This document shows, one piece after another, positions 2,107 to 60,844 of a DNA stretch of 64,000 nucleotides (its first letter is position 1; every line of letters starts with the position of its first letter). The position numbers and the translations under genes were made by a program. The notes beneath the pieces were generated by a model, which made no database searches, had not been told where the DNA came from, and was given only the letters and a program-made list of their open reading frames with translations. Source of the stretch: a virus; the IMG/VR virus record IMGVR_UViG_3300009095_000016, positions 2,271 through 66,270 of that record; one strand, written 5' to 3'.

Positions 2107-3270
2107 ATGACTGAGCTTGTCCGTCGCACGACCGGCGAGGTGGATCCCGCCGAAGCAGCACGGCTCTCGAAGTCGAAGCTGATGCCGGAGCACATCGCAG
2201 GTGATGCGGCCTCCGTCGAGTACATGATGCGCTTCGGCGCCGCGCTGGGCATCGACCCGATGTCCTCCTTCCAGCACATCTTCGTCTTCAAGGACGGCGA
2301 CGGCCGACTCAAGGCCGGTATGTCCGCCCACCTCATGCAGGCTCTCGCCATCGCGGCCGGTCACACCGTCCACGTCGAGGGCAACGCGATGAAGGCGACC
2401 GCCGTTCTGGTCCGCAAGACGTCGGCCGAACAGCTCCAGCGCTTCGAGATGATGCGTGAGCAGGAACGGCGCCTGAAGGCCGCCCGCCTTGAGGACATGG
2501 ACCGCCTGTACAAGATGCAGCGGGGCCAGCTCCTTGAGCGCATCGAAGACCTCCGCGCCCTCGACGCCTTCGGCGAGGAGCCGTCTGCGGAGGAGGTCGC
2601 CGGACTGCGCAAGCAGCTCGCCGAGCTGCACGGCCAGTACGACTTCGACGAGCTGCGCAAGTCGATCAGCACGACGGACTTCGACCTCAGCAAGCTGGTG
2701 CGGTTCGAGTCCACGTGGACGATGGCCAGGGCGCAGCAGATCGGTCTCGGCAACAAGGGCGTCTGGCAGAAGTTCGGACCCGAGATGCTGAAGAACCGCT
2801 GCAAGTCGGGTGTCGTACGCGACGGTGCGATCGACGTGATCCTCGGCGTGAAGAACATCCTCACCGAGATGGGCCTGACCCTCTCCGAGGATGACAACGA
2901 CCAGCTCGCCATGGCCTCCGCCCTGTACCCGCCCGAGGAGCTGGGCGCCGAGGTGGACGAGAACGAGCGGCCGATCCAGGGTGAGGTCATCGACGTCACC
3001 AAGGGCGGCAGCAAGAAGCAGAAGGCCATGCTGGACGCCGCGCGCAAGGCGGCCGAGCAGGGTTCCCCGCAGCAGCTCGCCGACTGGGCCGCGCGGACCG
3101 CCGGAGACGACAAGCTGTCGCCCGACGACAAGATCTCCCGCATCTACGCCGTGCAGAAGGCGGCGCAGGAGGCGGGTAAGGGGGACGAGGCGGTGGGCCA
3201 GGGCGACGGAGATGCCCAGGTTCCGCTGAGCCTCCACCTGGAATCCATCGTCAACTCCCTCCGCGACTGA
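2107..3270 (+). CDS. RecT-like ssDNA annealing protein with a coiled-coil insertion
   Basis: SKLMP...G.ALGIDPM...SAHLMQAL..AGH and WTMARAQQIGL..K.VWQK..PEML pattern. It lies next to the exonuclease. Start chosen at ATG 2107. Confidence 0.65.
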   Translation: MTELVRRTTGEVDPAEAARLSKSKLMPEHIAGDAASVEYMMRFGAALGIDPMSSFQHIFVFKDGDGRLKAGMSAHLMQALAIAAGHTVHVEGNAMKATAVLVRKTSAEQLQRFEMMREQERRLKAARLEDMDRLYKMQRGQLLERIEDLRALDAFGEEPSAEEVAGLRKQLAELHGQYDFDELRKSISTTDFDLSKLVRFESTWTMARAQQIGLGNKGVWQKFGPEMLKNRCKSGVVRDGAIDVILGVKNILTEMGLTLSEDDNDQLAMASALYPPEELGAEVDENERPIQGEVIDVTKGGSKKQKAMLDAARKAAEQGSPQQLADWAARTAGDDKLSPDDKISRIYAVQKAAQEAGKGDEAVGQGDGDAQVPLSLHLESIVNSLRD

Positions 3271-3304
3271 GACACGCGGACCACAAGGACAAGGACAAGA
3301 ACAC

Positions 3305-4555
3305 ATGAGCGACAACACCGAGTTCGACCCGTTCAACCAGCCCGAGGGCGCGGCCGACGCCACCGACGCGACGCCGTCCGGCGGCGACATCCTGGGCGAC
3401 CTGGACCTCGACGCCGAGCTGGACGACCTCTTCGCCGACGCCGACCTGGAGCTGGAAGAGGACGAGACCGAGGAGGGCGTCCGCGTCTACGAGGCGGGCG
3501 ACACCTACGTCAACCCGCTGGACGTCGGCCTCAAGGACAAGATGTGGGTCCCGATCCGCATCGGCGTCGCCGAGTTCAAGGAGAAGCACACCCCGCGCCT
3601 GTCTTCGAAGGTCTGCGTCGCCGTGAAGGTCGACGAGGCCACCGGCAAGAAGCGGGTCTACGTGCCCTTCGAGCAGGTCGAGGCGCAGATCCAGGCGGGC
3701 GCCACAGAGGTCGTCGGCGAGTACGAGCTGCCGTACTTCATCTGCGAGGCGAACCACGTCGCGCCCGAGTTCGGCCAGCGCCGCTACCCGTACGAGATCG
3801 AGGTCCCGGCCCTCACGATCAAGACGGCCTTCTTCAAGGAGCAGCGCTCCGGCCGGAAGGGCTTCAAGAACGAGGACGGCACCTCGCTCCGCAAGGCCAC
3901 CCAGGCGACCCAGCCGGGCGAGAAGGTCAACCTCAAGACCATGCCGGGCATCGCCAAGCGCATGGAGGACAAGATCGTGATGGCGCAGATCACGCTGTCC
4001 ACCAAGACGAAGACCCGTCCGCGCCTGGACGCCAACAACCAGCCGATCTCGGTCCTGTTCGACCCGGAGACCGGCGCCCCGGTCACCGTCTTCGCCACCG
4101 AGAAGCAGGAGGGCGACGACACCCAGACCTACCTGTACAACGACGGCTCCGGCACCGTCTACGAGGGCAACCCGAAGCTGCTGGTGCACGTCGAGGGCAA
4201 GGTGTACGCCATCGCCGACAAGGGCGAGAACTCCGCGCCCCTGATGGAGGAGTACGCCCAGACCACCGACTACCTGAAGACCAAGTTCATGCCGGTCCCG
4301 GAGCGGCAGGTCGAGGTCGAGCTGCGCGACGGCTCGGTGGTCAAGGGCGAGATCACCTGGGGCACGGTCGGCGCCATCACGCTGAACAAGACGCCGGGCG
4401 TCCCGGTCGACATCCTGCTCGGCGCGGGTGCGGGTGACCGCACCGGCAAGAAGATCACCGCCGTCTGGCTCGGTACCCAGTGGACCGAGGTCCCGGCGGA
4501 GGGCGACGGCGGGGGCAGCGGCCTCGACGAGTTCGCGGGCGCCAAGAACCTCTGA
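3305..4555 (+). CDS. hypothetical protein, possible ssDNA-binding protein (very acidic N-terminus)
   Basis: 416-aa ORF with strong codon bias, between RecT and primase, with a beta-rich core. The function is inferred from position only. Confidence 0.6.
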   Translation: MSDNTEFDPFNQPEGAADATDATPSGGDILGDLDLDAELDDLFADADLELEEDETEEGVRVYEAGDTYVNPLDVGLKDKMWVPIRIGVAEFKEKHTPRLSSKVCVAVKVDEATGKKRVYVPFEQVEAQIQAGATEVVGEYELPYFICEANHVAPEFGQRRYPYEIEVPALTIKTAFFKEQRSGRKGFKNEDGTSLRKATQATQPGEKVNLKTMPGIAKRMEDKIVMAQITLSTKTKTRPRLDANNQPISVLFDPETGAPVTVFATEKQEGDDTQTYLYNDGSGTVYEGNPKLLVHVEGKVYAIADKGENSAPLMEEYAQTTDYLKTKFMPVPERQVEVELRDGSVVKGEITWGTVGAITLNKTPGVPVDILLGAGAGDRTGKKITAVWLGTQWTEVPAEGDGGGSGLDEFAGAKNL

Positions 4556-4606
4556 TCGCGGAGAGGTGAGCTGGACGGATACGATCGACTATCCGCCCGG
4601 TTTCTG

Positions 4607-4636
4607 ACGGGCGGGGCCTTCCGGGGTCCCGCCCGT
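4607..4636 (+). terminator. GC-rich hairpin (terminator or processing stem)
   Basis: ACGGGCGGG...CCCGCCCGT stem in the intergenic space. Confidence 0.45.
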
Positions 4637-4676
4637 TCGCGTTCCGGAAAGTCGCACGAGAAAAGGAGAGACGTAG

Positions 4677-6962
4677 GTGAGCTTCGTCTTCTTCGACACC
4701 CTCTTTCCGAAGGTCAACGACGACGGAAAGGATCTGGGATTCGTCGCGATCTCGCTGTTCCCGGGTGGCATCTACGACCCGGATGACAAGACGGGGCCGA
4801 CCCAGACCCATTTCTTCGCGTGGCCATCGCAGCGTGACGACCTGATCGCCTTCTGTCTTGCCAACAGCGAGAAGGACGTCTACACGGTGCCCGCCCTCTT
4901 CCGTACCCGGGGCAGCCGCAAGGGCAGCAACATCTCGCACCAGTGGGCGGCGTACGCCGACGCGGAGCACCTTCCGCTCGACCGGCTGAAGCTCCAGCCG
5001 ACGATGGTCGTCGAGACCTCGGAGGGCCGGAACCACCTGTACTGGGTCACCGAGACCGACGACCCGGAACAGCTCATCGACATCTCCCGGACCATCGCCG
5101 CCGAGCACGCCCGCGAGGGGTGCGACCCGAGCGGCTGGGACGCAGGCCAGCTCCTGCGAGTGCCGGGCACGGCGAACAACAAGTACGCCCGGCACGGGCG
5201 CCCACGCTGGCGGATCCCTCAGCCGAAGATGGGTGCGACGTACACCCTCAAGTCGCTGATCAGCCAGTATCCGCCGTACAGCACGCAGGACCGGCCGAGC
5301 GTCGCGAGTGACATGCCGCCGAAGAACGAGTGGTACTTCTCGGCGCAGTCCATCCGGGAATCGGCCGAGGTCTTCCGGTCCAGCCCGGAGGTCCACGACC
5401 TCTACGCGGCCGACCTGAAGCCGGACCAGGACCGCTCGAAGACGCTCTGGAAGCTGCTCAGTCTGCTCTCCCGGCTGAACGTCTCGCGGATCACGGCCAT
5501 GCACATCGCCTGGTCGGCGAAGTGCAACAAGTACAAGATCGACGGTCGCCCCGAAGAGGAGCTGTGGCAGCAGCTCTGCAAGGCGTACGACCACCCGGAG
5601 AACCAGCCCAAGAGGAACAGCTTCTCCGACATCGGCTACCGCAAGGAGGCCGACGAGAGCGAAGAGAACCCGGAGAACAAGCTCACCGCGTTCGCCGAAT
5701 CCGTCTCGATCCTGCGTCCCGAAGAGCGCGATCTGGTGCCGCACGACACCTTCATCGACCGCTACCAGGCGTGGGCGGAGACGCGCACCGACGCGCCGTC
5801 GTGCTACCACCGGGCCGGAGCGGCGACCATCCTCTCGACCGTCCTGGGCGAGTTCGGAAAGTGCCCGACGAAGTTCGACACCAACCTCACCCTGTGGTTC
5901 TTCATCCTCGGTCCCACCACTCGGGCCAGGAAGACCACCGCGATGATGATGTGGGTCGACTTCCTCGACGAGCTGTCCAACGACAGCTTCCCCTACCTGC
6001 TCGGATCCGACGTGACCTCGGAGGCCCTGAGCGTCATCCTGCCCGACCGCAACGGGCGCTCGTCCGTCTTCTACCGCGACGAGGCCCACGGCCTGCTGTA
6101 CGAGCAGGCGGCAAAGCGCTACCTGGCAGGCGTGCGCGAGCACATGACCGAGCTGTTCACCGGCCGCGTTCGCATCGCCCTGCGTGTCGGCAACCTCAAG
6201 GAGCACGAGGACCGCGACCTCTCGGTCATCCGCACGAACTTCCTGATGTTCCTGTGCGGCACGCTCCAGCAGGTCACCGAACACCTGACGATCGGCGACT
6301 ATCAGTCCGGCCACCTCGCCCGCTTCCTCATCGCGGAGGCCGATCCGCCCCCGATGACGGAGGAGGCGATGTTCACCGAGCAGTTCGACGGCCAGACCCC
6401 GGCCGACGACGTCCTCCGCCAGGGGCTGCTCAACGACATGTTCGCGGTGCGCGCCTTCTGGATGGAGGAGACCACGCCCGGCGACACGGTGATGATCCCC
6501 TTCGACGACCCGACCTGGCGGCGCCTCCAGAAGGCCAAGTGGGAGCTGTACAACGCGGCCGACAACCACGAACTGTCCGAGGTGCTGCTGCCCACGACAT
6601 CCCGCATGGGCGACTCGATGATGAAGACCGCCGTCCTCATCGCGATGTCCGAGCGGGAGAAGATCGTGCGGATGCCGCACCTTCTCAAGGCGATGGCCCT
6701 GACCGAGGAGTGGTACCGCTCGACGGCGCGCGTGGCGGGCAAGATCCTCCACTCGGAATGGGCGGCCCGGCAGAACGAAATCCTCACCGCGATCCAGGCA
6801 CGCAAGGAGGGCGTCACGGAGCAGGACATCTACTCGCGGTTCCGCTCTAAGATCCAGGAGAGGGACATCGAATCGGACCTGCACGTTCTTGCGAAGGCTG
6901 GCCTGATTCACAAGACGATGGAACGCGGAAGGGTGCGGTACGTACCGATCGCACGGACCTGA
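4677..6962 (+). CDS. DNA primase/helicase (RepB-type primase plus C-terminal P-loop-like helicase, DUF3987-like)
   Basis: AYAD, VVETSEGRNHLYW and LLRVPGT.N primase motifs, then ILGPTTRARKTT and RDEAHGLL. Confidence 0.8.
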   Translation: MSFVFFDTLFPKVNDDGKDLGFVAISLFPGGIYDPDDKTGPTQTHFFAWPSQRDDLIAFCLANSEKDVYTVPALFRTRGSRKGSNISHQWAAYADAEHLPLDRLKLQPTMVVETSEGRNHLYWVTETDDPEQLIDISRTIAAEHAREGCDPSGWDAGQLLRVPGTANNKYARHGRPRWRIPQPKMGATYTLKSLISQYPPYSTQDRPSVASDMPPKNEWYFSAQSIRESAEVFRSSPEVHDLYAADLKPDQDRSKTLWKLLSLLSRLNVSRITAMHIAWSAKCNKYKIDGRPEEELWQQLCKAYDHPENQPKRNSFSDIGYRKEADESEENPENKLTAFAESVSILRPEERDLVPHDTFIDRYQAWAETRTDAPSCYHRAGAATILSTVLGEFGKCPTKFDTNLTLWFFILGPTTRARKTTAMMMWVDFLDELSNDSFPYLLGSDVTSEALSVILPDRNGRSSVFYRDEAHGLLYEQAAKRYLAGVREHMTELFTGRVRIALRVGNLKEHEDRDLSVIRTNFLMFLCGTLQQVTEHLTIGDYQSGHLARFLIAEADPPPMTEEAMFTEQFDGQTPADDVLRQGLLNDMFAVRAFWMEETTPGDTVMIPFDDPTWRRLQKAKWELYNAADNHELSEVLLPTTSRMGDSMMKTAVLIAMSEREKIVRMPHLLKAMALTEEWYRSTARVAGKILHSEWAARQNEILTAIQARKEGVTEQDIYSRFRSKIQERDIESDLHVLAKAGLIHKTMERGRVRYVPIART

Positions 6963-50700: not shown

Positions 50701-52240
50701 CCCGGGACCCAAATTCAAATTCAATTCCGCAATTGGTTTTCTGCCGTGACAGAATTCCTGTCGAATTTCCTCCGAATTTCTCCGCTGATTTTCTTCGGCA
50801 TCGCTCACACTCGCACCCGCTTGCATTCCAGTGCATATCCCTTTGCATTGTGTGTGTATGTGTGTGTGCATTGACGTGAGATATAGAGCTGGTGGGTATT
50901 CCTTTGATTGCTGCTGAATACCTACCGACTTTCCCGCTCGATTCCCCGTGCTTTCTTTCGCTGCATTCCCCTTGCATTCATGTTCCGTGCATTCCTGCGA
51001 TTGCTGCGAATGGCACACACGAGAAACGCGAATGACAGGCACAGAATCGAGACCTATTCCCCGTGCTTTCCTTGCTTGCATTCCTCCGCACTTGCTTGCA
51101 TTCCTTGTGCTCTCTCGTGTGTGTATGTGTGGTGTGAATAGGCGAAACAAGTAATGCGGATATCGGAAACCGAGTGCGCGGAATTCCCTTGCATTCGAGT
51201 GCGTTGCATTCCGCGCGCTCCCCGCTTTCGCACCGCACCCGTTCACGTGCTCACCCATGGCGCGCACCACTCCCGCACCCGAGCAATCCGCACCGCGCGC
51301 ACTCCCGTTCCCTCACGTGCTCACGTGCTCCCGTACCGGGTGAGTGGCGAGACTCCCGAACCGTGCGCGACAGACAGCGTGCGCGCGTCCCTACGGGGCG
51401 AACGTGCGCAGGTGGGCACCCGCACCCGCACGCACGCTCCCGAGCGCTCACGCGCGCATACGCGCGTACGTGCTGGGCTGCTCATATGTGCTCACGTGTG
51501 CTCATTCGTGCAGGTCACACCCCCTGCCTTCGCATTCCTCCCACACCCAACCATTCACCCCACAATCGGACATAGCTACACACACAGCGCACTGTGAGGA
51601 CGTCCGGGAGACGCGCGCACGCTGCGCCGAGCATCACGTTTCCGCAGGTCAGACACCCTGTCGCTGCAAATTCCGACATCTGGGACACCCGCTCTGACCT
51701 GCGATTTCAACGAACTGTTGTACCGGTTTCGAGTGCGACAAAGCGGAGCGCTCCCGCTCACATAAGTAACTAAGAGTGGTTGACATCTACTTGCTTCTCA
51801 CTCTCTGTATATACGTCGCAGGTCGCAGCGCTGACGTGCGCGTACGTGTATGAACCGGACATGTGGGAGCTATGCCCACACATTCCCCTGCCTTTCTCGC
51901 ACTCGGAACCTTCCCCGATCATGAAATTTGGTACCGGTCTGTCCTAGTTTGACCATCGATGCTTGCTACACCTACCGATTTGCTCTGGCGTTTGCTCACT
52001 GTAAATTTCTGATCCATATGAGCTACATGTCCGTTTCGTGTCGTGTAGTCCGGTACGTTCTCCATGCCTCTGACCTGCACAAACAGATTCGTCTGTCGCA
52101 TCGTCGCAGGTACAAGAGCTGACAGAGACTTTTTTGAGAAAAATCTTGAACTCGTCGTTTCCGCAGGTCAGAGCACATTGTGAGCTGCGTCACACTCACA
52201 CCGTCGTGAACTCCGGTAGCGCTCTGACCTGCATGTTCCT
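50701..52240. repeat. lower-GC non-coding repeat zone (phased AATT tracts, GCATTC array, GTGCTCA, TGACCTGC)
   Basis: At least 9 same-strand GCATTC copies. 15-bp duplications at 50941/51056 and 51071/51091, and a 17-bp duplication at 51637/52156. Confidence 0.8.
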
Positions 52241-52279
52241 TGATCATCTGATGTTGTGTCAGCAACCACACACTTGCAA

Positions 52280-53390
52280 TGGCAGCCATGAATATGCTTG
52301 TCTCTGGGTGTCGCCACGACGCGGCGCCCGCTCCGGCGGGACGCGGCGCGGGGCGAGTGCAAGCGTCCGGGTTCTACCCCCGGACAACACGCCCCCGGGT
52401 GTTCCTCCGCTTAGCGCGGGGGGTGACCGGGGAGCGCGCATCCGAAGCACTGACGCACGGGAAACCGGCGACGTCGGGCGGGAAAGCGGCCAGCACGAAC
52501 GGGCGCGATGCGGCGGAACGGGAACGGTGACCAGCCGTAACGGTCACACTCCCGCGATGCGGTTCCTTGAGATTTTCGGAGCCTGGCGCGGCAACCCTGG
52601 GAAGGGAGCGCGGGCGCAAGCGGTAGCCGGTCGTCCTGATGTTTGGGACGGCATCCGGAAAAAACGGCACCCGATAGGCCACAACGGGGCGAGCGATTCA
52701 AACCCTTGTGCTGTCTGTCTTGACCCACCAGCGATTACCGGTCACTAGTCGGTCCCCTTACAGGCGCAACCTAAGCGCACGGGGGAACGGGAATACCGCG
52801 AAAACTGAGGTTGCGAACCACTACCGACGGGATGTCAGGTAGTAAGGCGGTCCGGACAGTGCAAGCGCGATAACCCCCGGCCGAATCACGTAAGGCGCGT
52901 GTGGGTCCCGATTCAATGCGGGGCCGGAGCGTCAGAACCAATCCGGGACACTCCCCGATTGGCCGGTTTGACGGTGTGACCTATCGGAACAACGCACCAT
53001 GCGGAAACGGGCATGGATGATCACGCACTCTTGACGGACGGGAAACCGTCGGGTGATGTGCGACCGAATGGCGGGATACCGGGGGTGTCGGAACCCTTGC
53101 CCGTGACGTGCGGTAGTCGCGTAGCGCTCCGCACATGTGTTGCAAGACAAGGGGGACGGATGTTCGTGCATTCGTCCCCCGGCGGGGAGCGGACACAACG
53201 ACGTGACGCGCGGGACGCACCGGAAACGGCGCGCACGCGACGATACGCGGTCCGCTCCCAACGTGCTTACCGTGCGGTGAGCACGAACGGACAACACAGT
53301 TCGCGTCCGCTTAGGCAACGGTAAAGGGCCGTGCAACCTATGACGGGTGAATTCTGTCCGTTTCGCCCTCCGCACGGAGGTTCGGGAAGG
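52280..53390 (+). ncRNA. candidate large structured ncRNA or structured early leader
   Basis: Contiguous stem-loops with GAAA tetraloops (53004, 53042, 53223), 10-12 bp stems with G-U pairs, and no credible ORF. Confidence 0.5.
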
Positions 53391-53399
53391 GTGTCAGCA

Positions 53400-53582
53400 A
53401 TGGTGATCAGGCTTGACAACGGCGGAACCGTGACAGTCACGGAATCCGGGAGCGTTGAATACCGGCGGGACCGCGAAACGGCATGGATGCCGGGACGCGG
53501 TAGCTACGCGGAAACGGTCGAATGGCTGGAATCCGTGACGTCCGGTAATGCGGGAGTTCTGTTCACGTCGCGTAAGGCGTGA
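53400..53582 (+). CDS. 60-aa hypothetical early protein
   Basis: GGAAGGG RBS; first gene after the structured tract. Confidence 0.55.
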   Translation: MVIRLDNGGTVTVTESGSVEYRRDRETAWMPGRGSYAETVEWLESVTSGNAGVLFTSRKA

Positions 53583-53633
53583 ACTCTGTCTGACGTCGCA
53601 CCGTTCGGGATGCGACGCGGGAAAGGGGAGATC

Positions 53634-55565
53634 ATGGGAAACACGTTCGTTGCGCTGAACATTGACGGTGACGCGCGGTTCTACGGTTTGGGAGTGCGGG
53701 GAGTCGGTCACGTCGTGCTCATCCCGTCCGGAATGCACAGTGACCCGCTTGCGTGCGAGTCGGTCGAAAAGGCGTGCGATGGTAAGCCGCTGGACAGTGC
53801 GCGACTCGCCGAAAAGTTCACTGGTGACAAGCGGTGCGCGCGGTGCGTCAAGTGGCTTGAGTCGGACGGCGGTAAGAGCGATCTTGAGGCCGCGCGACAG
53901 GACAAGTGGGACGACGAAAACGGGCCCGGTCTCGCGTCCATCATGGGTGAGTTCACCTTGATCACGCTTGACGACGTCGTGAACGTCACGGCGGACGGGA
54001 GCGACGCGCGGGAGGAATCCGCCCCGGTCCCGGCGGCGGAAATCGTCAAGGATGCGGCGGCGGCGGGTGTCAAGGCTCCGGCCCGTAAGGGCGGGAAGCG
54101 CGGGAAGCGCAAGAATTCCGCCCCGGTCGCGACGGGTGACGTGTGTGCGTCGACCGGTCTCACGTTCGCAGCGATGCGGGACGCGGTCGCGACATACTAC
54201 GCGAACGGCGGGGAGGTTCCGGCGGAAATTGCGACGCTCCCGGACCCGTACGTCAAGCGTCCCGCGCCGGACATGGCGGGAGCGGTGAGCGGTCCGGTTC
54301 CGGCGGTGCTCCCGTGCGACTACGCCGGGCCGGTGTCCAAGCTGAACATGGAGCGGACGCACGGAAAGTGCCCGGGATGCTCCGCGTACATCCCGCTGCT
54401 GCCGGAGCGGGAATCCAAGGAATCCGGCCCGAAGGTTTCCAAGATCGCTTGCGCGGGTGTCGGGAGCGCTCCGGCGCCCGGGACGCGCGTGCGGCGCGAT
54501 GACCACTCCGTAAGCGTCCCGGACGACTTTCAAGGGAAGACGTCCGCCCCGTGCGGGACGTGCGCCCGGGTGATCGCTGTCTCTCGGGACGGGGTCATGC
54601 GTCGGCACAACGGCGTGGAAGTACCGGAGAGTGCGGGAGAGTGCCCGGACAAAATCGGTACGCACAACGTCGGAGGCGCTGCCACTCCCGCACACAAGGG
54701 CCTGACGTCGCGCATGATCGAAACGGTGGAACACGGGAGCACCCCCGGGGACACCGCGACGGCTGACAAGCGGCGCGCGACGGAATCCCGCTGCGCCCGG
54801 TCGCGCAAGGTGATGAGCGGCCGCAAGACTCCCGGGACGGTCGAATGCCCGACGTGCGCGCGGCCGGTCGAACTCAAGGCCGTACAGCGGAAAAAGGGCA
54901 CGGTCTACGTGATTCCGGAGCACATCCGCGCGGGTGAGTCGGTCAAGCACATCGGGGGCGGCGACGTCCGGGACGTCACGCCCCGGGGTGAGGGTGCGGA
55001 CGTCGGCGCGACCGTGACGCGCGGGAAGGTGTCGGCGCGGCTGGCACTGTCCCGGGGGCACGGTTCGGTGGACGGCGCGGCGAACACGGGTTCTCAGAAC
55101 ATGGCGCCCGTGCAGCCGCGCGGGTGGCTCGGTAAGGCGGGAACGGGACAGCTTCCCGCGACCGTGCGGCCTGGGATTGACCCGGAGGTGACCGGCCGCG
55201 AGTGCGTGGCGTGCGGGGAACTCCCGGAGATCGCGCACAAGGGCAAGTCGCGCGGGTGGCGTCGTCGTCACTCCACGATCGTCGGAACCATCCTGCGGGA
55301 GCGCAAGGCGAAGCGGGATGCGGAGCGCGCGGCTGCAATCGCGCGGGGCGAGATTGCGTCGGCGCAGGAAAAGCGGGAGGGCCGTAAGGCCGCTTCGGTC
55401 GGATCGTTCGCCGAAGGGACGTGCGCGGGCGTCGTCTCTCACGAGCCGCGCCCGGAGTTCGCCCCGAAGGGTGAGCGGCGCCCGGCGGGATGGAAGGCGG
55501 GGGAGATCACCCGGGAGACGGCGCGTAAGGCTCTGGACGGGGTCGCGCGCAAGGCTGGCAAGTAA
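53634..55565 (+). CDS. 643-aa protein with repeated Zn-ribbon motifs
   Basis: CARC, CPGC, CGTC...H, CPTC...H and CVAC, with a GAAAGGGGAG RBS. Confidence 0.75.
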   Translation: MGNTFVALNIDGDARFYGLGVRGVGHVVLIPSGMHSDPLACESVEKACDGKPLDSARLAEKFTGDKRCARCVKWLESDGGKSDLEAARQDKWDDENGPGLASIMGEFTLITLDDVVNVTADGSDAREESAPVPAAEIVKDAAAAGVKAPARKGGKRGKRKNSAPVATGDVCASTGLTFAAMRDAVATYYANGGEVPAEIATLPDPYVKRPAPDMAGAVSGPVPAVLPCDYAGPVSKLNMERTHGKCPGCSAYIPLLPERESKESGPKVSKIACAGVGSAPAPGTRVRRDDHSVSVPDDFQGKTSAPCGTCARVIAVSRDGVMRRHNGVEVPESAGECPDKIGTHNVGGAATPAHKGLTSRMIETVEHGSTPGDTATADKRRATESRCARSRKVMSGRKTPGTVECPTCARPVELKAVQRKKGTVYVIPEHIRAGESVKHIGGGDVRDVTPRGEGADVGATVTRGKVSARLALSRGHGSVDGAANTGSQNMAPVQPRGWLGKAGTGQLPATVRPGIDPEVTGRECVACGELPEIAHKGKSRGWRRRHSTIVGTILRERKAKRDAERAAAIARGEIASAQEKREGRKAASVGSFAEGTCAGVVSHEPRPEFAPKGERRPAGWKAGEITRETARKALDGVARKAGK

Positions 55566-55630
55566 TCACACTCGGCAGGATCACGGGCCCCGGGAATCAC
55601 CGGGGCCCATCGGAAAGGGGAACACGGGAC

Positions 55631-56284
55631 ATGAGCACGATCACGGTTGCGCAGGACATCGAGCACGCGCGGGAGCGGCTGACGCTGCCGTTCGAATCGC
55701 TCCGGCAGGACATGACGGCGCACTTCTGGGAGGCGTTCGGCGCGGCGGCGGCCCGGTACCGGGCGGCCCGTTCGGAGGGTCCGGCGGCCCGGGAATTCGC
55801 GGGCATCGTGCGGGAGCTGGAGCGGGACGCGGCAGGAACCGCGAATGACCCGAAGTTGCGGCGCGGTGCGGACGTCCCGGAGGAATACCCGCTCCCGGCG
55901 GTGGGGCGTCAGCCGTGGGCCACGATGCCGACCGACGGGAGCGGGCGGCCCACGGTTACGGAACGCGTGGTGTACGTCCTTACGGGCGCGGCGGTGGCGG
56001 CGGTGCTGCTGATCCTGGGATTCCTGATCAGCGGGCACGGGGATGCGCGGGAAGTCCCGGCGGCGCCGCTCGCGGTGACGGGTGCCCCGGCGGGTGTCGG
56101 TGAGCCGGACCGGGACGCGGCGCGGGAACTGATCATCGAGGGGGCGTGGCTGTCATGGCAGGCGTACACAGAGTGCGGGGAGGGTCCGGCGCAGTGTGAC
56201 GCGGTGCTGCGGGAGGTGAACGCGAACCCGTACGGCGTCCACTTCTTCGAGGACGGGAGCGCGGTCGACCCCGCGCGCAACTGA
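55631..56284 (+). CDS. single-pass membrane protein
   Basis: TM helix VVYVLTGAAVAAVLLILGFLI. Confidence 0.65.
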   Translation: MSTITVAQDIEHARERLTLPFESLRQDMTAHFWEAFGAAAARYRAARSEGPAAREFAGIVRELERDAAGTANDPKLRRGADVPEEYPLPAVGRQPWATMPTDGSGRPTVTERVVYVLTGAAVAAVLLILGFLISGHGDAREVPAAPLAVTGAPAGVGEPDRDAARELIIEGAWLSWQAYTECGEGPAQCDAVLREVNANPYGVHFFEDGSAVDPARN

Positions 56285-56383
56285 TCACGGCCGTGCGGTC
56301 CGGTCGGGCTCCGGGGTGACCCGGGGTCCCGGCCGAATCGTCCGGGAGTGAGGGGCGAGACATCGGAAGGGAAGGAAACGATC

Positions 56384-56782
56384 ATGAGCGTGACGCTGGT
56401 CAAGCCGTCGGACACTGCGGGAGTGGAGATCAACCCGGGTGTGGGCATGAACTCCGGCACGGGAGCGGTTCAGTTCATCGGCGACATGCCCGCGCGCAAG
56501 GTGAACGGCCCGCTGATCCTGGTGGCCGGGATGCGCGTGCGCCTGCCGGAATCGGTCAAGATCGCCGGTCCGGCGGTCGTGCGCGCGGTCGCGGTGGTCA
56601 TCGAGCGGGACGGATTCCGGGACGCGGCGGAGACCGTGCCCACCTTCCGGGGCGTGGTCATCACGGCGGACGGGGACGAGTACGCGACCGGCCCGCGCGG
56701 TGACATGGAGTCCGTGCGCCTGGCGTGGCTGCGCCTGGCGGTGGAGTCGGGGACGTTCCAGCGCGTTGCCCGGATGCGCTAA
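56384..56782 (+). CDS. hypothetical early protein
   Basis: Extended RBS CGGAAGGGAAGG. Confidence 0.65.
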   Translation: MSVTLVKPSDTAGVEINPGVGMNSGTGAVQFIGDMPARKVNGPLILVAGMRVRLPESVKIAGPAVVRAVAVVIERDGFRDAAETVPTFRGVVITADGDEYATGPRGDMESVRLAWLRLAVESGTFQRVARMR

Positions 56783-56830
56783 CATCCGGTGACCTAGGCC
56801 AGACAGGAAGAACGGGAAGGGAGACGGGAC

Positions 56831-57214
56831 ATGCAGGAATCCATGACGCGCGGGGTGTGGTGGGACACGGCGGCGCCGTACGGGCCGAACGGCTACCAGT
56901 ACGGACGCGGGGAGGACGTCACCGGCCACACGGTCGCGCGGGAGATCACGTTCGACATGATGCCGGGTGACCCGAACTGCATCGCGCGGGGCGTGGCGGA
57001 GATGACCGACGGGAGGGTCTACACCTTCACGGTCCTGAAGCCCGGCCACGCGACCACGCGCGACCACGACGGGCGCCCGCGCCCGCGCCTGGCGACCCTG
57101 TCGCGTCAGACGTTCCATGAGGCGGCGCGCGGGATCGTCGAATGGGAGTTGGCCGGGCACCGGCTCACCCCTGAGTCCGCGCGGGCCTACGGGGAGCAGA
57201 TCAGCGCGCTCTGA
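56831..57214 (+). CDS. hypothetical early protein
   Basis: Extended RBS GGGAAGGGAG. Confidence 0.65.
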   Translation: MQESMTRGVWWDTAAPYGPNGYQYGRGEDVTGHTVAREITFDMMPGDPNCIARGVAEMTDGRVYTFTVLKPGHATTRDHDGRPRPRLATLSRQTFHEAARGIVEWELAGHRLTPESARAYGEQISAL

Positions 57215-57340
57215 CGTCGGGGAGACGCCCTAGGCGAACCGGGTCCCACGGGGTCCGGTTCGCCGGGAGTGCCGCCCGGCACTGCGGGATCCGGTCACGG
57301 ACGGACCGGTGCCCATTGGTTCGGAAAGAGGGAAGATCAC

Positions 57341-57751
57341 ATGCGTAAGCCCATCGTCACCATCCTGGCCGGTTTCGTCGCGCTGTTCGCGTTCTCCGCT
57401 CCGGCGGACGCGGCCCCGGCGGGCGGGAAGCGTCCGGCGGTCCGGTCGGTCTGCGAGACCGGATACCGGGGGATGCCCGCGTACGACCGGCTGTGCCTGA
57501 CGCGCGGGACCGTGCTGGACGGCGTGAACCTGTGGTTCCGCTACGTCGACACCGGCAAGGTCATCCCCGCGCGGGAGCGTCGCGCGCTGTGCCTGGACGC
57601 CACGGCCACGGGTCACACCCGCGCCGGGATCATCGACGCGCTGAACGACGTGGCGTATGACCACTTCCGGAACTACCGGCTCGTCCTGTCGGTGGCCGGG
57701 ACGGTCGGCGTGATGGACTGCAAGGCCATGGGGGTCAAGATCAAGAAGTAG
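57341..57751 (+). CDS. secreted protein (signal peptide)
   Basis: MRKPIVTILAGFVALFAFSAPADA|A, with several Cys. Confidence 0.7.
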   Translation: MRKPIVTILAGFVALFAFSAPADAAPAGGKRPAVRSVCETGYRGMPAYDRLCLTRGTVLDGVNLWFRYVDTGKVIPARERRALCLDATATGHTRAGIIDALNDVAYDHFRNYRLVLSVAGTVGVMDCKAMGVKIKK

Positions 57752-57843
57752 TCCGGGACCGGCGGACGGGAGCGCCCCGGAAGGGGGCCGGGGCGTTCCA
57801 GCCTGTCTATCGCGGATGGACACGAGGAGAGGGAGAAACGATC

Positions 57844-58161
57844 ATGGCGAAACTTTCTGCGGCCGGGCGTCTTGTGCTGTTCCTGGTCGACAGCCCGCAC
57901 GCACGTGTCAGCTACTCGCTGGGCGGCGGGTTCAGCCCGTCCGTCATCGCGTCCATGGAGCGGGGGCACGGTACGAAGTCCAACCCGCGCGCCGACGTGG
58001 TGCTGAAGCTGATCGACGTGGGCGCGCTGGAGGGGGCGGAGTTCGAAGACCTGCGGCTGACGAACCGGGGCCGTACGGTCCTGGCCGAGCAGCGGGCGCG
58101 CGGGTGGGAGCTGGTCACGGAGACCGGCCGCAAGCCGCGCATGGAGCAGCGCAAGGGGTGA
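57844..58161 (+). CDS. hypothetical early protein
   Basis: GAGGAGAGGGAG RBS. Confidence 0.65.
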   Translation: MAKLSAAGRLVLFLVDSPHARVSYSLGGGFSPSVIASMERGHGTKSNPRADVVLKLIDVGALEGAEFEDLRLTNRGRTVLAEQRARGWELVTETGRKPRMEQRKG

Positions 58162-58245
58162 CCGGCTGACGGGAGCGCCCGGGGTGTGCCGCCCCGGGCG
58201 CTGACGCCAACCTGTCACGGACGGAAACGACGGAAGGGAGAAACG

Positions 58246-58605
58246 GTGAGCACCAACAATCTGACGATCGTCTCGCAGCTCCGCTGTTCGGAGTGCGGGG
58301 AGCCGATCCGGCTCGCGGAGGTCACGAAGCGCTACGGGTTCCCGGAGTACCGGTTTGAGCACATCGGGGAGCCGTGCCGCCGGTACTACGGGAAGGATCC
58401 GGCGGAACACGAGGGGTTCCCGGTGAGCAACCCGGACCCCGTGCGGCGGTGCGCCGCGTGCTGGCCGTACGAGACGCGCACGGAGGTCGGGGAGGCGCCT
58501 GGCGACGACGGGCGCGGGATCGTCACCATGCGTCAGGAGGCGTACGGGGACAGCACGACGTGCGCCACGTGCACGCGGTCCAACTGGTACTCGATCGGCG
58601 ACTGA
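58246..58605 (+). CDS. Zn-binding hypothetical protein
   Basis: CSECG...H...C, CAAC and CATC. Confidence 0.65.
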   Translation: MSTNNLTIVSQLRCSECGEPIRLAEVTKRYGFPEYRFEHIGEPCRRYYGKDPAEHEGFPVSNPDPVRRCAACWPYETRTEVGEAPGDDGRGIVTMRQEAYGDSTTCATCTRSNWYSIGD

Positions 58606-58701
58606 ACCGGCGACGTTCGGGGGCGCTCCGTGGGGGCGGAGCGTGCCCCGTGTGTTTCCGGCAAGCGGGAACGGGCGGAAGGGAGTACGGAAGTGGATCT
58701 C

Positions 58702-59049
58702 ATGCAGATCGCGGGTCACCTGTCGCTGGAGTTCGGGGCGGTCGTGACGGGTCCGTTCAAGGGTGAGCGTCAGGACTCGGTTCAGGTCATGCGGCCGGAC
58801 GGGTACGGCGTCATGCTGATGATGGGCCCCGGGAAGGCGCTCGCCGTGGAGTCCCGGCCGGGCGGCCTGGACGTCTGGCAGATCCGGGAGACGGACGACC
58901 CGGACGTGATCGACATCTCGAACACGCGCGACATGATCCGGTACGACACGGACCTGAACGGCGCGCGGGAGGCGCTGCGGGAGACGGGCCCGGCGGTGTG
59001 GGTCAAAAAGGACACGCCGCCCGCGCGCTGCGAGACCTGCGGGAAGTAA
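58702..59049 (+). CDS. hypothetical early protein
   Basis: Extended RBS; C-terminal CETC. Confidence 0.6.
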   Translation: MQIAGHLSLEFGAVVTGPFKGERQDSVQVMRPDGYGVMLMMGPGKALAVESRPGGLDVWQIRETDDPDVIDISNTRDMIRYDTDLNGAREALRETGPAVWVKKDTPPARCETCGK

Positions 59050-59162
59050 CGAACGGGTCACGATGTAGGCGGACGGGAGCGCCCGGGTTCTCCGGGCGTT
59101 CCAGCCGGTCTATGATCGGGCAACGGCCTAGGCCGAACGGGAACACGGAGAAGGAGAAGATC

Positions 59163-59561
59163 ATGGGTGAGACGGTCAAGCTGAACGCGAAGGTCACGAC
59201 GTGGCGCGACGGCAAGGTGCTCCGTGACGCGCGGTGGGAGGCGTACGCGGCGGTCCTGAAGGACGGCAAGCCGTTCGAGACGTCCGGCCACCTGAGCGGG
59301 CGCCCGGGGTCGGCGGGATCCCGTCCGTCGGAGGTCGGCCGACTCGCGCGGGAGTGGCACGCGGAAGCGGCCCGGTCCACCTACGTGGTGTTCAGCTACG
59401 AGACGCCGATCGCCTGGCGCAACGCTGACGACACGTGGACGATCCCGGCGCGCGGGACGCTCGGTTTCGACGCCGAGTCGCAGACGACCGTGACCGGCAT
59501 GAACAAGATCCGCACGGCGGTCGCGTCGTTCAGCACGTACCGCGAGACGCCGCAGGACTGA
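59163..59561 (+). CDS. hypothetical early protein
   Basis: GGAGAAGGAG RBS. Confidence 0.65.
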   Translation: MGETVKLNAKVTTWRDGKVLRDARWEAYAAVLKDGKPFETSGHLSGRPGSAGSRPSEVGRLAREWHAEAARSTYVVFSYETPIAWRNADDTWTIPARGTLGFDAESQTTVTGMNKIRTAVASFSTYRETPQD

Positions 59562-59647
59562 CACACGGGCGCACGGCCGCGTTCGGGAGTGCCGGGAGGG
59601 GGCCCGGCATTCCAGTGCACGACCGGACGACGGAAAGAGGGAAGAGC

Positions 59648-59983
59648 ATGGCGACGTATCACTACCTGAAGCCCGGGGAAGCGCTCGCACTGGCGAGTGA
59701 CCACGCGCGGGACTTCGAGAAGATCATCGGCCTGCGCGGGATGGACGCCGAGAACATCCGGCCCCGGATCGAGCGGACGCGGGCCGGGTACATGCACCCG
59801 CCGTTCGACACGTGGCGCGCGTACGGGAGCCGCGACAAGATGCGGGAGATCGTTTCCGTGGAGCGCACGGGCGGCGACGCGGACCCCGGGACGATCACGG
59901 TCACGTTCAAGAACGACGACGGCACCACGGAAGAGACCTATCTTCACCGGGTCGACCTGCTGTGTGTCGAGCGGCCCGTCTGA
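59648..59983 (+). CDS. hypothetical early protein
   Basis: CGGAAAGAGGGAAGA RBS. Confidence 0.65.
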   Translation: MATYHYLKPGEALALASDHARDFEKIIGLRGMDAENIRPRIERTRAGYMHPPFDTWRAYGSRDKMREIVSVERTGGDADPGTITVTFKNDDGTTEETYLHRVDLLCVERPV

Positions 59984-60058
59984 GCGGTGACGTTCGGGAC
60001 TGCCCGGAAGGGGGCCGGGCGGTCCAGTGCATTACCGACGGAAGGGAGAACGGAAATA

Positions 60059-60496
60059 ATGGACACGACGCGACAGAAGATCGACGACATCAAGCGCGGT
60101 TCGCTGCTCCAGACGGCGGGCGGTTTCGTGATCGCCGACCTGGACGGCTGGACGCCGGGGAGCCGTGACGGGCGGGTGCCGCAGGAACAGTTCCTGTACG
60201 ACACGGACGGGAACCGGCACTTCCCCGGGGCGGACGGGACGCTGACGGTCGGCGTGGCCACGTTCCGCACGCAGGAGTACGGCAAGGTGCCCGGGAGGGA
60301 CACGCAGGGTCACGCGCTGCTCAACCACGTGCCCGGCAAGCCTCCGGCCGGTCTGTGCCCGGCGTCCCGGAACCTGGGCAACTCCCTGTCGGTCTGGTCG
60401 TCGGGGACGGCGCTCACGGGCGTGACGTGCCGGGCGTGCCGGAAGATGATCGGTCTCGTGAACACGGGAGCGCCGCGCCGGAGCAACGGGATCTGA
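60059..60496 (+). CDS. hypothetical early protein with C-terminal H...C...VTC..C
   Basis: CGGAAGGGAGAA RBS. Confidence 0.6.
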   Translation: MDTTRQKIDDIKRGSLLQTAGGFVIADLDGWTPGSRDGRVPQEQFLYDTDGNRHFPGADGTLTVGVATFRTQEYGKVPGRDTQGHALLNHVPGKPPAGLCPASRNLGNSLSVWSSGTALTGVTCRACRKMIGLVNTGAPRRSNGI

Positions 60497-60498
60497 TC

Positions 60499-60780
60499 AT
60501 GCGACTGATCGCCGTTGACCCGTGGGACTGCGGGTGCACGGAGTGCATCACGGGTGAGTACGTGCCCCTGCGGTTCGCCACGGACGAGCAGGTGGCCGAC
60601 CTGATCATGGGGAGGCTGCGCAACAACCTGAACTCCGGTACCCAACTGGAGATCCACACCACGTACGCGACGGAGGGCGGGAAGCTGGTCCTTCACGACG
60701 TCACCGTGACGTACGAGCACCACGACGGGCAGACGCGGGAGTGGTCGCCGGACCCGTACCGGATGGGTCTCGCCGCGTAG
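60499..60780 (+). CDS. hypothetical protein with DCGCTEC motif
   Basis: DCGCTECITGEYVPL; starts 2 nt after the upstream stop. Confidence 0.65.
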   Translation: MRLIAVDPWDCGCTECITGEYVPLRFATDEQVADLIMGRLRNNLNSGTQLEIHTTYATEGGKLVLHDVTVTYEHHDGQTREWSPDPYRMGLAA

Positions 60781-60844
60781 CACTGCACGGAAACGACGGA
60801 CGGACGCCGGGCCCACAACGGGCCCGGCCGGAAGGGAGAACACG

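What the first reader, a model, noticed from the sequence alone, without database searches (positions are those of the whole stretch)
52280..53390. Candidate large (0.65-1.1 kb) ornate structured RNA at the head of the early region
Seen: an ORF-poor tract of near-continuous stems. Examples: ACTACC/GGTAGT (52820-52843); CCGGCC+GAATC multi-stem (52877-52927); CGTCA+CCAATC (52930-52973); CCATGC with GAAA loop (52997-53016); GACGG-GAAA-CCGTC (53037-53050); GTGCGG/CCGCAC (53108-53134); 12-bp GGGGGACGGATG/CATTCGTCCCCC with a G-U pair (53151-53180); 10-bp GGGAGCGGAC/GTCCGCTCCC (53185-53259) enclosing CCG-GAAA-CGG; CGTGCTTACC/GGTGAGCACG with a G-U pair (53262-53285); TAGG+ACGG (53312-53340). Further hairpins lie in 52310-52790. 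GNRA loops and G-U pairs point to + strand RNA-level selection. I recognise no tRNA, tmRNA, RNase P or intron core. Knowledge: phages carry giant ncRNAs (GOLLD, ROOL) and cis antiterminator RNAs (HK022 put). Inference: an undescribed large ncRNA, or a processive-antitermination leader for the hairpin-studded early operon.
Basis: partly seen in the sequence, partly recalled or inferred. Interest (0 to 1): 0.85.

Follow-up and report, generated by a model that had tools for sequence, protein, structure and literature searches.

The report
Large conserved structured phage leader RNA
A 1.1-kb stretch without genes, next to the terminal repeat of a large Streptomyces phage, encodes a conserved, intricately folded RNA found in no RNA database, and it contains an exact copy of the host's ribosomal-RNA "boxA" anti-termination signal.

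Summary
Window 52280-53395 (+ strand) is non-coding. Substitutions show no 3-nt periodicity and most indels are not multiples of three. It is as conserved as, or more conserved than, the neighbouring genes.

Across about 16 homologues in 7 lineages (cluster BM Streptomyces phages and metagenomic relatives) it keeps roughly 280 base pairs in more than 50 helices.
- In each of five segments, 84-97% of cells are paired, against about 40% when partners are slid.
- 13-28 pairs per segment change on both sides, against 0-13 when slid.
- G-U cells outnumber A-C cells 371 to 114, which points to the + strand.
- Column-shuffle z-scores reach -7.8. A coding control gives -2.1 to +1.8.

Rfam gives no match, and the two papers on these phages do not mention the RNA.

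A new lead came up. Bases 52562-52572 match 11/11 the boxA of the Streptomyces rRNA leader, and the element is present in every phage lineage.

My best reading is a giant structured leader of the rightward ORFan operon that carries an rrn/nut-like antiterminator. That would protect the long untranslated transcript and allow read-through of the hairpin-punctuated operon. What the rest of the fold does is unknown. The main rival is a stand-alone ornate RNA of the GOLLD/ROOL kind. Transcription itself is untested.

The parts
50701..51743 (.). Single collapsed copy of the ~1.04-kb direct terminal repeat of the phage genome. This is context, not part of the RNA.
   Evidence: Window 47000-51743 matches JustBecause record positions 1-5503, and window 52000-53700 matches 182981-181284 of the same 184,281-bp record. 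A DTR of 1,043 bp is reported in PMC6687918.
51637..52237 (.). Lower-GC control region holding three inverted pairs of the 12-mer GCAGGTCAGAGC / GCTCTGACCTGC, a TGTGA-N6-TCACA palindrome (52179-52194) and an A/T run (52131-52147). It is a probable protein-binding, promoter or origin region just upstream of the RNA.
   Evidence: 9 matches in the window against 2.1 expected, 5 of them here. The region is conserved in all lineages. The 18-mer is widespread in unrelated viral contigs.
52276..52289 (+). Invariant 14-mer GCAATGGCAGCCAT (a palindrome, ATGGC-A-GCCAT) at the 5' edge. It is identical in all homologues, so it is more likely a DNA or protein site or the transcript start region than a helix.
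52281..52512 (+). 5' domain. It holds a long, nearly invariant hairpin (52313-52331 with 52336-52354) containing a G.G to A.A co-varying mismatch at 52323/52345. It also holds the covarying hairpins 52365-52385, 52390-52436 and 52447-52479, and 52486-52506. The 52365-52436 hairpins are absent from the Satis/L007 lineages.
   Evidence: 94 pairs, 90.9% paired against 36-48% slid, 18 pairs changed on both sides against 4-8. Column-shuffle z -7.8 (+) and -5.6 (-).
52527..52550 (+). Hairpin with a covarying stem and an invariant loop, AGCCGUAA.
   Evidence: 6 bp, 4 pairs with changes on both sides, 100% paired.
52556..52583 (+). boxA-like element. GUUCCUUGAGA (52562-52572) is identical to the core of the Streptomyces rrn-leader boxA. 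It is flanked by GG..CC arms that could form a 6-bp stem.
   Evidence: host leader; 17-mer in 26/26 Streptomyces genomes, about 6 copies in complete ones, 0 in the control; present in all 14 phage sequences; single copy in two complete phage genomes.
52584..52712 (+). Central helices, including 52627-52632 with 52663-52668 around a conserved CCGGAAA loop. A possible closing helix, 52502-52512 with 52703-52712, would overlap the 3' arm (52507-52512) of a helix modelled in the 5' domain, so the two cannot both hold as drawn.
   Evidence: For the segment, z is -4.6 (+) and -2.5 (-).
52729..52807 (+). Four nested helices forming one extended arm (22 bp, 12 pairs with changes on both sides).
52818..52990 (+). 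Variable domain with two alternative module sets. Group A is the window, L008, L052, L056 and Satis. Group B is the Frankenweenie-like phages. The domain is largely deleted in L007. Covariation is visible within group A.
   Evidence: The pooled shuffle z is not significant (-0.6).
52995..53130 (+). Best-conserved core domain: six helices and a three-way junction with GNRA-type loops.
   Evidence: 40 pairs, 15 changed on both sides, 98.5% paired against 38-43% slid, 0/500 shuffles reach the observed values. CM R1 finds it in the divergent lineage L169 at 105.8 bits. z -7.6.
53140..53395 (+). 3' variable domain. It includes the 53151-53180 hairpin inserted only in the window's group, the branched arm 53286-53362, and the hairpin 53367-53380 just before the ribosome-binding site. 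It is much shorter in the Satis/L007 lineages.
   Evidence: 70 pairs, 91.5% paired, 20 changed on both sides against 4-7 slid. z -4.7 (+) and -6.3 (-).
53400..53582 (+). First ORF after the RNA (60 aa, no known family). It is conserved as a protein in all lineages and is followed by a covarying hairpin and then the 651-aa ORF at 53610-55565.

Best explanation
Window about 52281-53395 (+ strand) encodes a conserved, highly structured non-coding RNA of about 1.1 kb. It is found only in cluster BM Streptomyces siphophages and their metagenomic relatives.

I infer that it is transcribed rightward from the control region beside the terminal repeat, as the first kilobase of the transcript that continues into the operon of ORFan genes (60 aa, 651 aa, 217 aa and onward).

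About 280 nt into the RNA there is a copy of the host rRNA-leader boxA. I propose that, as in rrn operons and lambda nut sites, this element recruits host NusB/S10 and partner Nus factors onto the transcribing RNA polymerase. That would make the polymerase resistant to Rho and to hairpin terminators. The long untranslated RNA could then be completed, and the downstream operon, which has a strong hairpin in nearly every intergenic gap, could be read through.

The other roughly 1 kb of conserved fold must have a further function that I cannot assign; a scaffold, decoy or RNP are possibilities.

Shown: the conserved structure, the strand, the lack of coding, the boxA identity and its conservation, and the downstream hairpins. 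Inferred: transcription, the transcript ends, Nus binding and antitermination.
For: 1. Not coding. Substitutions are spread evenly over the three phases (for example 78/63/73 against L008). Only 6 of 20 to 16 of 44 indels are multiples of three. The adjacent CDS shows third-position excess and almost only x3 indels. No Pfam hit for any ORF in the region.

2. Strong constraint. Window versus L008 is about 80% identical in the RNA and about 64% in the next gene.

3. Covariation.
- Core: 40 pairs, 15 changed on both sides, 98.5% paired against 38-43% slid, 0/500 shuffles reach this.
- The other four segments: 84-91.5% paired against about 40% slid, and 13-28 against 4-13 pairs changed on both sides.
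- Column-shuffle z: -7.8, -4.6, -7.6 and -4.7 in four of five segments. Coding control: -2.1 to +1.8.

4. Strand. There are 371 G-U cells against 114 A-C cells in the modelled pairs; slid controls are roughly equal. Unpaired positions are A-rich.

5. boxA.
- GUUCCUUGAGA at 52562-52572 matches 11/11 the element about 200 nt upstream of Streptomyces 16S.
- The host 17-mer occurs in 26/26 Streptomyces genomes, about 6 times in complete ones, and 0 times in the control.
- The phage element is present in all 14 sequences, including the most distant lineage, L169. It shows the same C/U variation as the hosts.
- It is single-copy in two complete phage genomes.
- The Frankenweenie version, GCUCUUUG, shares the GCUCUUU 7-mer with E. 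coli rrn boxA, UGCUCUUUA (PMC2724277).

6. Context.
- No sigma-70-like promoter or intrinsic terminator lies between the RNA and the first ORF.
- Strong GC hairpins without U-tails sit in nearly every downstream intergenic gap.
- All downstream proteins are ORFans.
- Synteny is kept even in a 260-kb relative.
Against: - No expression data exist. Promoter, 5' end and 3' end are unknown.
- The boxA match alone is weak statistically (E about 0.1 in a direct comparison with one rrn leader), and I noticed it after the fact.
- The adjacent host boxC (GAACUCAA) is not copied.
- In JustBecause and Kela the element is degraded to GUUCCUUGUUAAU.
- In the consensus fold its 5' part lies in a 6-bp stem (52561-52566 with 52578-52583), whereas NusB/S10 bind single-stranded boxA. 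That stem shows no compensatory change.
- Known antiterminator RNAs are 10-120 nt, so boxA does not explain a 1.1-kb fold.
- The downstream hairpins lack U-tracts. They may be stabilisers or processing sites rather than terminators.
- Long-range helices that would tie the domains into one fold are not above a parallel-strand null.
- One segment (52800-53010) fails the pooled shuffle test.
Confidence: 0.45

Rival explanations
1. A stand-alone, trans-acting large ornate non-coding RNA, the same kind of thing as GOLLD, ROOL or OLE. It would be made early, possibly cut from the operon transcript. Its own fold (scaffold, multimeric cage, decoy for a host factor or defence system, or ribozyme) would be the product. 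The boxA would serve only to get the untranslated RNA transcribed, or would be coincidental.
For: - Size and complexity: about 280 bp and more than 50 helices, with invariant loops such as AGCCGUAA and CCGGAAA, GNRA loops and lineage-specific swapped modules. This far exceeds any known cis antiterminator.
- Conservation exceeds that of the flanking proteins.
- rRNA itself is a structured product preceded by boxA.
- GOLLD and ROOL are phage-associated (PMC5737381 and bioRxiv 10.1101/2024.12.08.627333, listed).
Against: - No terminator or conserved 3' end lies before the first ORF.
- The 3' domain runs directly into the ribosome-binding site.
- No homology to any Rfam family.
- No tRNA neighbourhood of the kind typical for GOLLD/ROOL.
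- No closing or long-range helix is supported.
Confidence: 0.3
2. Not one RNA machine but a string of independent local elements in a long 5' UTR: attenuators, RNase or stability hairpins, and small regulatory aptamers. Each would be conserved on its own.
For: - Supported helices are almost all local.
- Whole modules are inserted, deleted or swapped between lineages without disturbing their neighbours.
- The downstream operon also carries many independent hairpins.
Against: - Density and continuity of conserved structure over 1.1 kb.
- Multi-helix junction domains: the core at 52995-53130 and the arm at 52729-52807.
- Invariant single-stranded loops, which suggest tertiary or protein contacts.
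Confidence: 0.12
3. The conserved hairpins act at the DNA level, for example in a replication origin, a packaging signal or single-stranded intermediates next to the genome end, rather than in RNA.
For: - The region is adjacent to the terminal repeat and to a lower-GC region with iteron-like inverted 12-mers and an A/T run.
- The minus strand also gives negative z-scores, and in 53130-53410 a lower one than the plus strand.
Against: - G-U cells outnumber A-C cells 371 to 114 in the modelled pairs, which marks one strand, the same strand as the downstream genes.
- Stems covary freely in sequence, unlike protein-binding palindromes.
- GNRA loops and A-rich unpaired positions are RNA features.
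- The iteron-like repeats lie outside the structured tract.
Confidence: 0.05
4. An unannotated protein-coding gene (for example the 204-aa ORF at 52134-52748 or the 147-aa minus-strand ORF at 52932-53375), or simply chance stems in GC-rich DNA.
For: Long ORFs exist on both strands, as in any 65% GC sequence. Single-sequence z-scores are only moderate.
Against: - No codon periodicity, and frame-breaking indels throughout.
- No Pfam hits.
- No annotator of seven related genomes called a gene here.
- Covariation and shuffle controls exclude chance.
Confidence: 0.02

Closest known systems
rrn leader antiterminator (boxB-boxA-boxC) and phage lambda nut sites
   Same: A boxA sequence sits promoter-proximally in a long transcript, upstream of many potential termination signals. 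The phage copy is identical over 11 nt to the host Streptomyces rrn boxA core. As in rrn operons, boxA precedes a long, structured, untranslated RNA.
   Different: - The host boxC is not copied.
- No lambda N-like protein or boxB has been identified.
- The element is embedded about 280 nt inside a 1.1-kb fold rather than in a short leader.
- Binding of Nus factors is untested.
- The element is degraded in two close relatives (JustBecause, Kela).
GOLLD, ROOL and OLE large ornate bacterial/phage RNAs
   Same: Very large, intricately structured non-coding RNAs defined by covariation, phage-associated (GOLLD, ROOL), with function unknown at discovery.
   Different: - No sequence or structure homology: no Rfam hit even at E <= 10 or E <= 1.
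- Larger (about 1.1 kb, against about 600-800 nt from my own knowledge).
- Not next to tRNAs.
- Confined to one phage cluster.
- It runs straight into an operon.
HK022 put RNA and other processive-antitermination RNAs (EAR)
   Same: A cis-acting structured RNA at the head of a phage or operon transcript that would let polymerase ignore downstream terminators without a dedicated phage protein.
   Different: put and EAR are two- or three-hairpin elements of about 70-120 nt (my own knowledge). They act directly on RNAP and contain no boxA. The RNA here is ten times larger and has no detectable similarity to them.

Membership tests
Any Rfam 15 family (including GOLLD, ROOL, OLE, HEARO, group I/II introns, RNase P, tmRNA, 6S, riboswitches) | A match to the family covariance model | tested here: not met
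   Gathering-threshold scan of the whole window: 0 hits. E <= 10 scan of 51500-54000: only two chance-level hits, RsmW at 18.8 bits against a threshold of 52, and BSR0602. E <= 1 scan of five divergent homologues: 0 hits.
GOLLD/ROOL-type phage RNAs | Genomic association with tRNA clusters in phages or prophages | tested here: not met
   ARAGORN finds no tRNA or tmRNA in the 64-kb window.
rrn/nut-type antiterminator | A boxA sequence matching the host consensus | tested here: met
   52562-52572 matches 11/11 the Streptomyces rrn-leader element. That element is present in 26/26 Streptomyces genomes at rrn-like copy number. The phage element is conserved in all lineages.
rrn/nut-type antiterminator | boxA accessible as single strand and bound by NusB/S10 | not testable with these tools
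   The consensus fold puts part of it in a 6-bp stem that shows no compensatory change. Binding needs an experiment.
rrn/nut-type antiterminator | Accessory boxB hairpin with a cognate protein (lambda) or boxC (rrn) | tested here: not met
   The host boxC, GAACUCAA, is absent after the phage boxA. No other similarity to the rrn leader was found. No N-like protein is recognisable; all neighbours are ORFans.
rrn/nut-type antiterminator | Terminators downstream in the same transcription unit that are read through | tested here: inconclusive
   Strong GC hairpins (-20 to -28 kcal/mol) occupy nearly every intergenic gap from 55585 to 60828, but none has a U-tail. Whether they terminate is unknown.
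Protein-coding gene | Conserved reading frame, codon-position substitution bias, indels in multiples of three | tested here: not met
Conserved structured RNA (generic) | Compensatory base-pair changes above phylogeny-preserving controls, with a strand-specific G-U excess | tested here: met
   with the coding control.

The most novel reading that the evidence does not exclude
A new class of giant (about 1.1 kb) ornate phage RNA that imitates a host rRNA transcription unit. Its embedded rrn boxA would hijack the host ribosomal antitermination and RNA-folding complex, so that the phage gets its own large functional RNA and its first operon transcribed early in infection. This would be the first RNA-borne nut-like system in an actinophage, and it would give an ornate RNA a tractable entry point to function.
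Probability: 0.3. Interest if true: 0.85.

Novelty: new variant of a known kind. Interest (0 to 1): 0.72.

Why it matters
Very large structured non-coding RNAs are rare in bacteria and phages, and almost all of them lack a known function. This one is about 1.1 kb with roughly 280 conserved base pairs. It is better conserved than the proteins beside it and is found in cultivable phages (JustBecause, Kela, Satis, Frankenweenie) of a genetically tractable host.

It also offers a concrete handle that GOLLD, ROOL and OLE lacked at discovery: an exact copy of the host rRNA boxA. That makes two questions directly testable. The first is how actinophages get host polymerase through long untranslated or terminator-rich early regions. 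The second is what a giant ornate RNA does during infection.

If the boxA idea fails, it remains a new large RNA family suited to structural study.

Tried and rejected
- **Rfam** at gathering and permissive thresholds, on the window and on five homologues: nothing.
- **Plain G-test/APC covariation** over all column pairs: dominated by shared phylogeny with about 7 lineages, so uninformative.
- **Search for long-range helices:** antiparallel stacks with two or more changes on both sides numbered 7, against 3 for a parallel-strand null. No supported global closing helices, apart from a possible 52502-52512 with 52703-52712.
- **MAFFT Q-INS-i:** not installed.
- **Covariance model of the core (R1):**
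  - One copy in the window's own 69-kb record.
  - No convincing hit in 35 unrelated viral loci or in 25 of the bacterial genome loci returned by the core-string scan below.
- **An 18-mer from the core in 596 Gb of genomes:** 106 hits, which is the chance expectation (about 140). Of the 25 of these loci scored with R1, none matched.
- **The 651-aa neighbour:**
  - No Pfam or PDB sequence match, and only a marginal PHROG hit to a family of unknown function.
  - The ESM Atlas gave no usable hit.
  - The AlphaFold2 model had mean pLDDT 38, so no fold search was made.
- **Sigma-70 promoter and intrinsic-terminator scan of 51500-53700:** no promoter-like site, and one minus-strand terminator-like site that is within chance.
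- **Literature search for the 12-mer/18-mer motif:** only primer noise.
- **blastn of the motif against phage records:** only weak 22/24 matches, lying under annotated mycobacteriophage genes.
- **Similarity of the RNA to the host rrn leader beyond boxA:** noise level.
- **A sigma-54-like reading of TGGCAGCC:** rejected by eye, because the spacing is wrong and the -12 element is not conserved.
- **A kissing interaction** between the AGCCGUAA loop and UACGGC at about 53066: considered but not claimed, because there is no covariation and it conflicts with a supported helix.

Full report
**Where the window lies.** The region belongs to a cluster BM Streptomyces siphophage. JustBecause and Kela are 96.5% identical to it, Frankenweenie about 76%, and Satis, Kradal, Quantum and EhyElimayoE about 71%. 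These are 184-200 kb genomes with direct terminal repeats of about 1.04 kb (PMC6687918; PMC10652959).

The window is the reverse complement of those records and runs across the joined genome ends. Window 50701-51743 corresponds to the terminal repeat. Leftward of the repeat lie genes 1-8 of the records, on the window's minus strand. Rightward lies a 1.65-kb tract that none of the seven deposited annotations assigns to a gene. After it come a 60-aa ORF (53400-53582), a 651-aa ORF (53610-55565) and further small genes, all on the + strand. The window's own record is a 68,980-bp IMG/VR fragment.

As a single sequence the tract is only moderately more stable than dinucleotide shuffles. For 52280-53390 on the + strand, z is -4.0; on the - strand it is -3.3. 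A coding control of the same length gives -2.4 and -0.9. Among 150-nt windows only 52300-52449 and 53100-53249 reach z of about -3 or lower. Thermodynamics alone would therefore not settle the matter.

**Homologues.** I collected these sequences:
- five IMG/VR loci, found through the 651-aa protein;
- one more IMG/VR locus through an 18-mer;
- six metagenome loci, found with a two-anchor pattern;
- a distant 260-kb IMG/VR contig (L169), found through a pattern from the 5' hairpin.

Together with the deposited phages this gives about 16 distinct sequences in roughly seven lineages. Identity to the window ranges from 97% down to about 58%. Synteny is the same in all of them: control region, then the non-coding tract, then the small ORF, then the large ORF.

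**Not coding.** Between the window and six lineages, substitutions fall evenly on the three phases (for example 78/63/73). Most indels have lengths of 1, 2 or 4 nt. In the adjacent ORF the same comparisons show the expected excess at one codon position, and almost all indels are multiples of three. No ORF in the tract matches Pfam.

The tract is at least as conserved as the neighbouring gene. Against L008 it is about 80% identical, while the gene is about 64%.

**Conserved structure.** The core domain (52985-53140) has a consensus of 40 pairs.
- 15 pairs change on both sides while staying paired.
- 98.5% of cells are standard pairs, against 38-43% when the 3' partners are slid by 1-3 columns.
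- None of 500 shuffles reaches the observed values.

The same analysis on five overlapping segments covering 52266-53410 gives consistent results.
- 84-97% of cells are paired, against about 40% slid.
- 13-28 pairs change on both sides, against 0-13 slid.

An alifoldz-type test shuffles alignment columns within conservation classes. It gives z = -7.8, -4.6, -0.6, -7.6 and -4.7 for the five segments on the + strand (sliding windows). The same pipeline on the neighbouring coding alignment gives -2.1 to +1.8.

The weak segment (52800-53010) exists in two alternative module sets and is largely deleted in one lineage. Within one set, compensatory changes are plain by eye, for example CCAAUC/GAUUGG changing to CCGCCC/GGGUGG.

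A covariance model of the core finds the distant L169 copy at 105.8 bits, with new compensatory changes and a 19-nt insertion in one hairpin.

**Strand.** The modelled pairs contain 371 G-U cells and 114 A-C cells, while slid controls are about equal. Unpaired positions are A-rich, 174 of 538. This identifies the + strand, the strand of the downstream genes. It also argues for RNA rather than a DNA palindrome.

**Architecture.** About half of the 1,106 nt are paired (568 paired positions, about 280 pairs), in more than 50 helices. The parts are:
- a nearly invariant long 5' hairpin (52313-52354) with a G.G to A.A co-varying mismatch;
- several covarying hairpins that are optional in some lineages;
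- a hairpin with an invariant AGCCGUAA loop;
- a four-helix arm at 52729-52807;
- a variable domain;
- the core three-way junction at 52995-53130;
- a variable 3' domain ending in a hairpin just before the ribosome-binding site of the small ORF.

Long-range helices are not supported above a parallel-strand null. Whether the domains pack into one fold therefore remains open.

**Known families.** Rfam 15 gives nothing at gathering thresholds in the window. At E <= 10 in 51500-54000 it gives only two chance-level hits. At E <= 1 in five divergent homologues it gives nothing. The window has no tRNA or tmRNA. The core model finds no copy in unrelated viral loci or in 25 bacterial loci. The 106 genome hits to a core 18-mer are at the level expected by chance. 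The two papers on cluster BM phages do not mention an RNA. Literature searches found no description of it.

**A lead on mechanism.** One of the best-conserved single-stranded-looking blocks, CGGUUCCUUGAGAU (52559-52573), resembled boxA. I read the leader of a Streptomyces 16S gene to check.
- About 200 nt upstream of 16S lies GUUCCUUGAGAACUCAACAG. From my own knowledge this is the actinobacterial BoxA followed by BoxC.
- The 17-mer GTTCCTTGAGAACTCAA occurs in 26 of 26 Streptomyces genomes, about six times in complete genomes. The reversed-pattern control gives no match.
- The phage RNA matches its first 11 nt exactly.
- The element is present in all 14 phage sequences examined, including L169, at +188 to +300 from the 5' anchor. 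It shows the same C/U variation seen among host species.
- It is the only copy of TCYTTGAGAW in two complete phage genomes.
- The Frankenweenie form contains GCUCUUU, the heart of E. coli rrn boxA UGCUCUUUA (PMC2724277).

The downstream operon carries strong GC hairpins without U-tails in almost every intergenic gap. All its proteins are ORFans.

An untranslated 1.1-kb RNA ahead of genes would normally be exposed to Rho. rRNA operons solve exactly this problem with boxA. I therefore favour a giant structured leader that carries an rrn/nut-type antiterminator.

**Caveats.**
- The boxA match is short (E about 0.1 against one leader) and I found it after the fact.
- boxC is not copied.
- JustBecause and Kela have a degraded version.
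- Part of the element may lie in a stem.
- The boxA explains none of the remaining fold.
- Nothing here shows transcription, transcript ends or timing.

The main rival is a stand-alone, trans-acting ornate RNA, and it is nearly as likely. The two readings are not exclusive.

**Verdict.** The feature is real and, as far as the tools and the held literature show, undescribed. It is a large structured RNA specific to cluster BM phages and their relatives. It is not a member of any known RNA family. It works most like an rrn or nut leader fused to a very large fold of unknown function.

Noticed in passing
window 51637-51703, 52068-52119, 52156-52237: The 12-mer GCAGGTCAGAGC and its complement form three inverted pairs just upstream of the RNA. 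The 18-mer CGCTCTGACCTGCAYGTT also occurs in about 34 stretches of viral contigs that do not carry the RNA (7-136 kb). There it is mostly intergenic, often extended to AACGCTCTGACCTGCAYGTTTGC, and in six loci it has the inverted partner exactly 39 nt downstream. This is a widespread actinophage palindromic element of unknown role; operator, hairpin and tiny mobile element are all possible.
   Followed up: partly
window 52179-52194: TGTGAGCTGCGTCACA (TGTGACCTGCGTCACA in most relatives) is a TGTGA-N6-TCACA palindrome, the shape of CRP/FNR- or Rex-type operators. It sits in the loop between one inverted 12-mer pair. Frankenweenie and Satis carry an extra copy at a position equivalent to window ~51952.
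   Followed up: no
window 52233-52246: A second, weaker boxA-like string, UGUUCCUUGAUCA, directly follows the last 12-mer. If transcription starts further upstream, this and the 12-bp inverted repeat before it would resemble an rrn-type hairpin-plus-boxA arrangement.
   Followed up: partly
window 55585-55608, 56306-56329, 57233-57264, 57769-57799, 58174-58202, 59076-59102, 59586-59613, 59997-60025, 60806-60828: Strong GC hairpins (-20 to -28 kcal/mol) without U-tails lie in nearly every gap of the rightward operon. Four of them share the form GGAGYGCCCGG...CCGGGCRUUCC followed by AG, which makes them a repeated element family.
   Followed up: partly
window 50800-51250 (inside the terminal repeat): A low-GC (0.49-0.55) stretch with several families of short direct repeats (ATTCCCCGTGCTTTC, CCCTTGCATTCC, GTGTGTGTATGTGTG). 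It has moderately negative + strand fold z-scores (about -3).
   Followed up: no
window 53610-55565: The 651-aa ORFan after the RNA keeps several invariant Cys pairs (for example C254/C257 and C315/C318) and a basic C-terminal part in all seven aligned homologues. This suggests zinc-ribbon-like modules. AlphaFold2 gave no usable model (mean pLDDT 38).
   Followed up: partly
window 53151-53180: A perfect 12-13-bp hairpin that is a 42-nt insertion found only in the window, JustBecause, Kela and L004 group. This shows that hairpin modules are gained and lost inside the RNA.
   Followed up: yes
window 52323 and 52345: Two facing positions in the otherwise invariant long 5' hairpin are G and G in most lineages, and A and A in Satis, L007 and L055. 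This is a co-varying non-canonical pair, or equivalently concerted change in the direct repeat GACGCRGCGC.
   Followed up: no
L169 (IMGVR_UViG_3300049141_000098, 259,646 bp), reverse strand, about 3561-4870 of the reverse-complemented locus: A much larger (260 kb) uncultured relative carries the same control region, RNA, boxA and downstream ORF. The element therefore extends beyond the 184-200 kb cluster BM isolates.
   Followed up: partly
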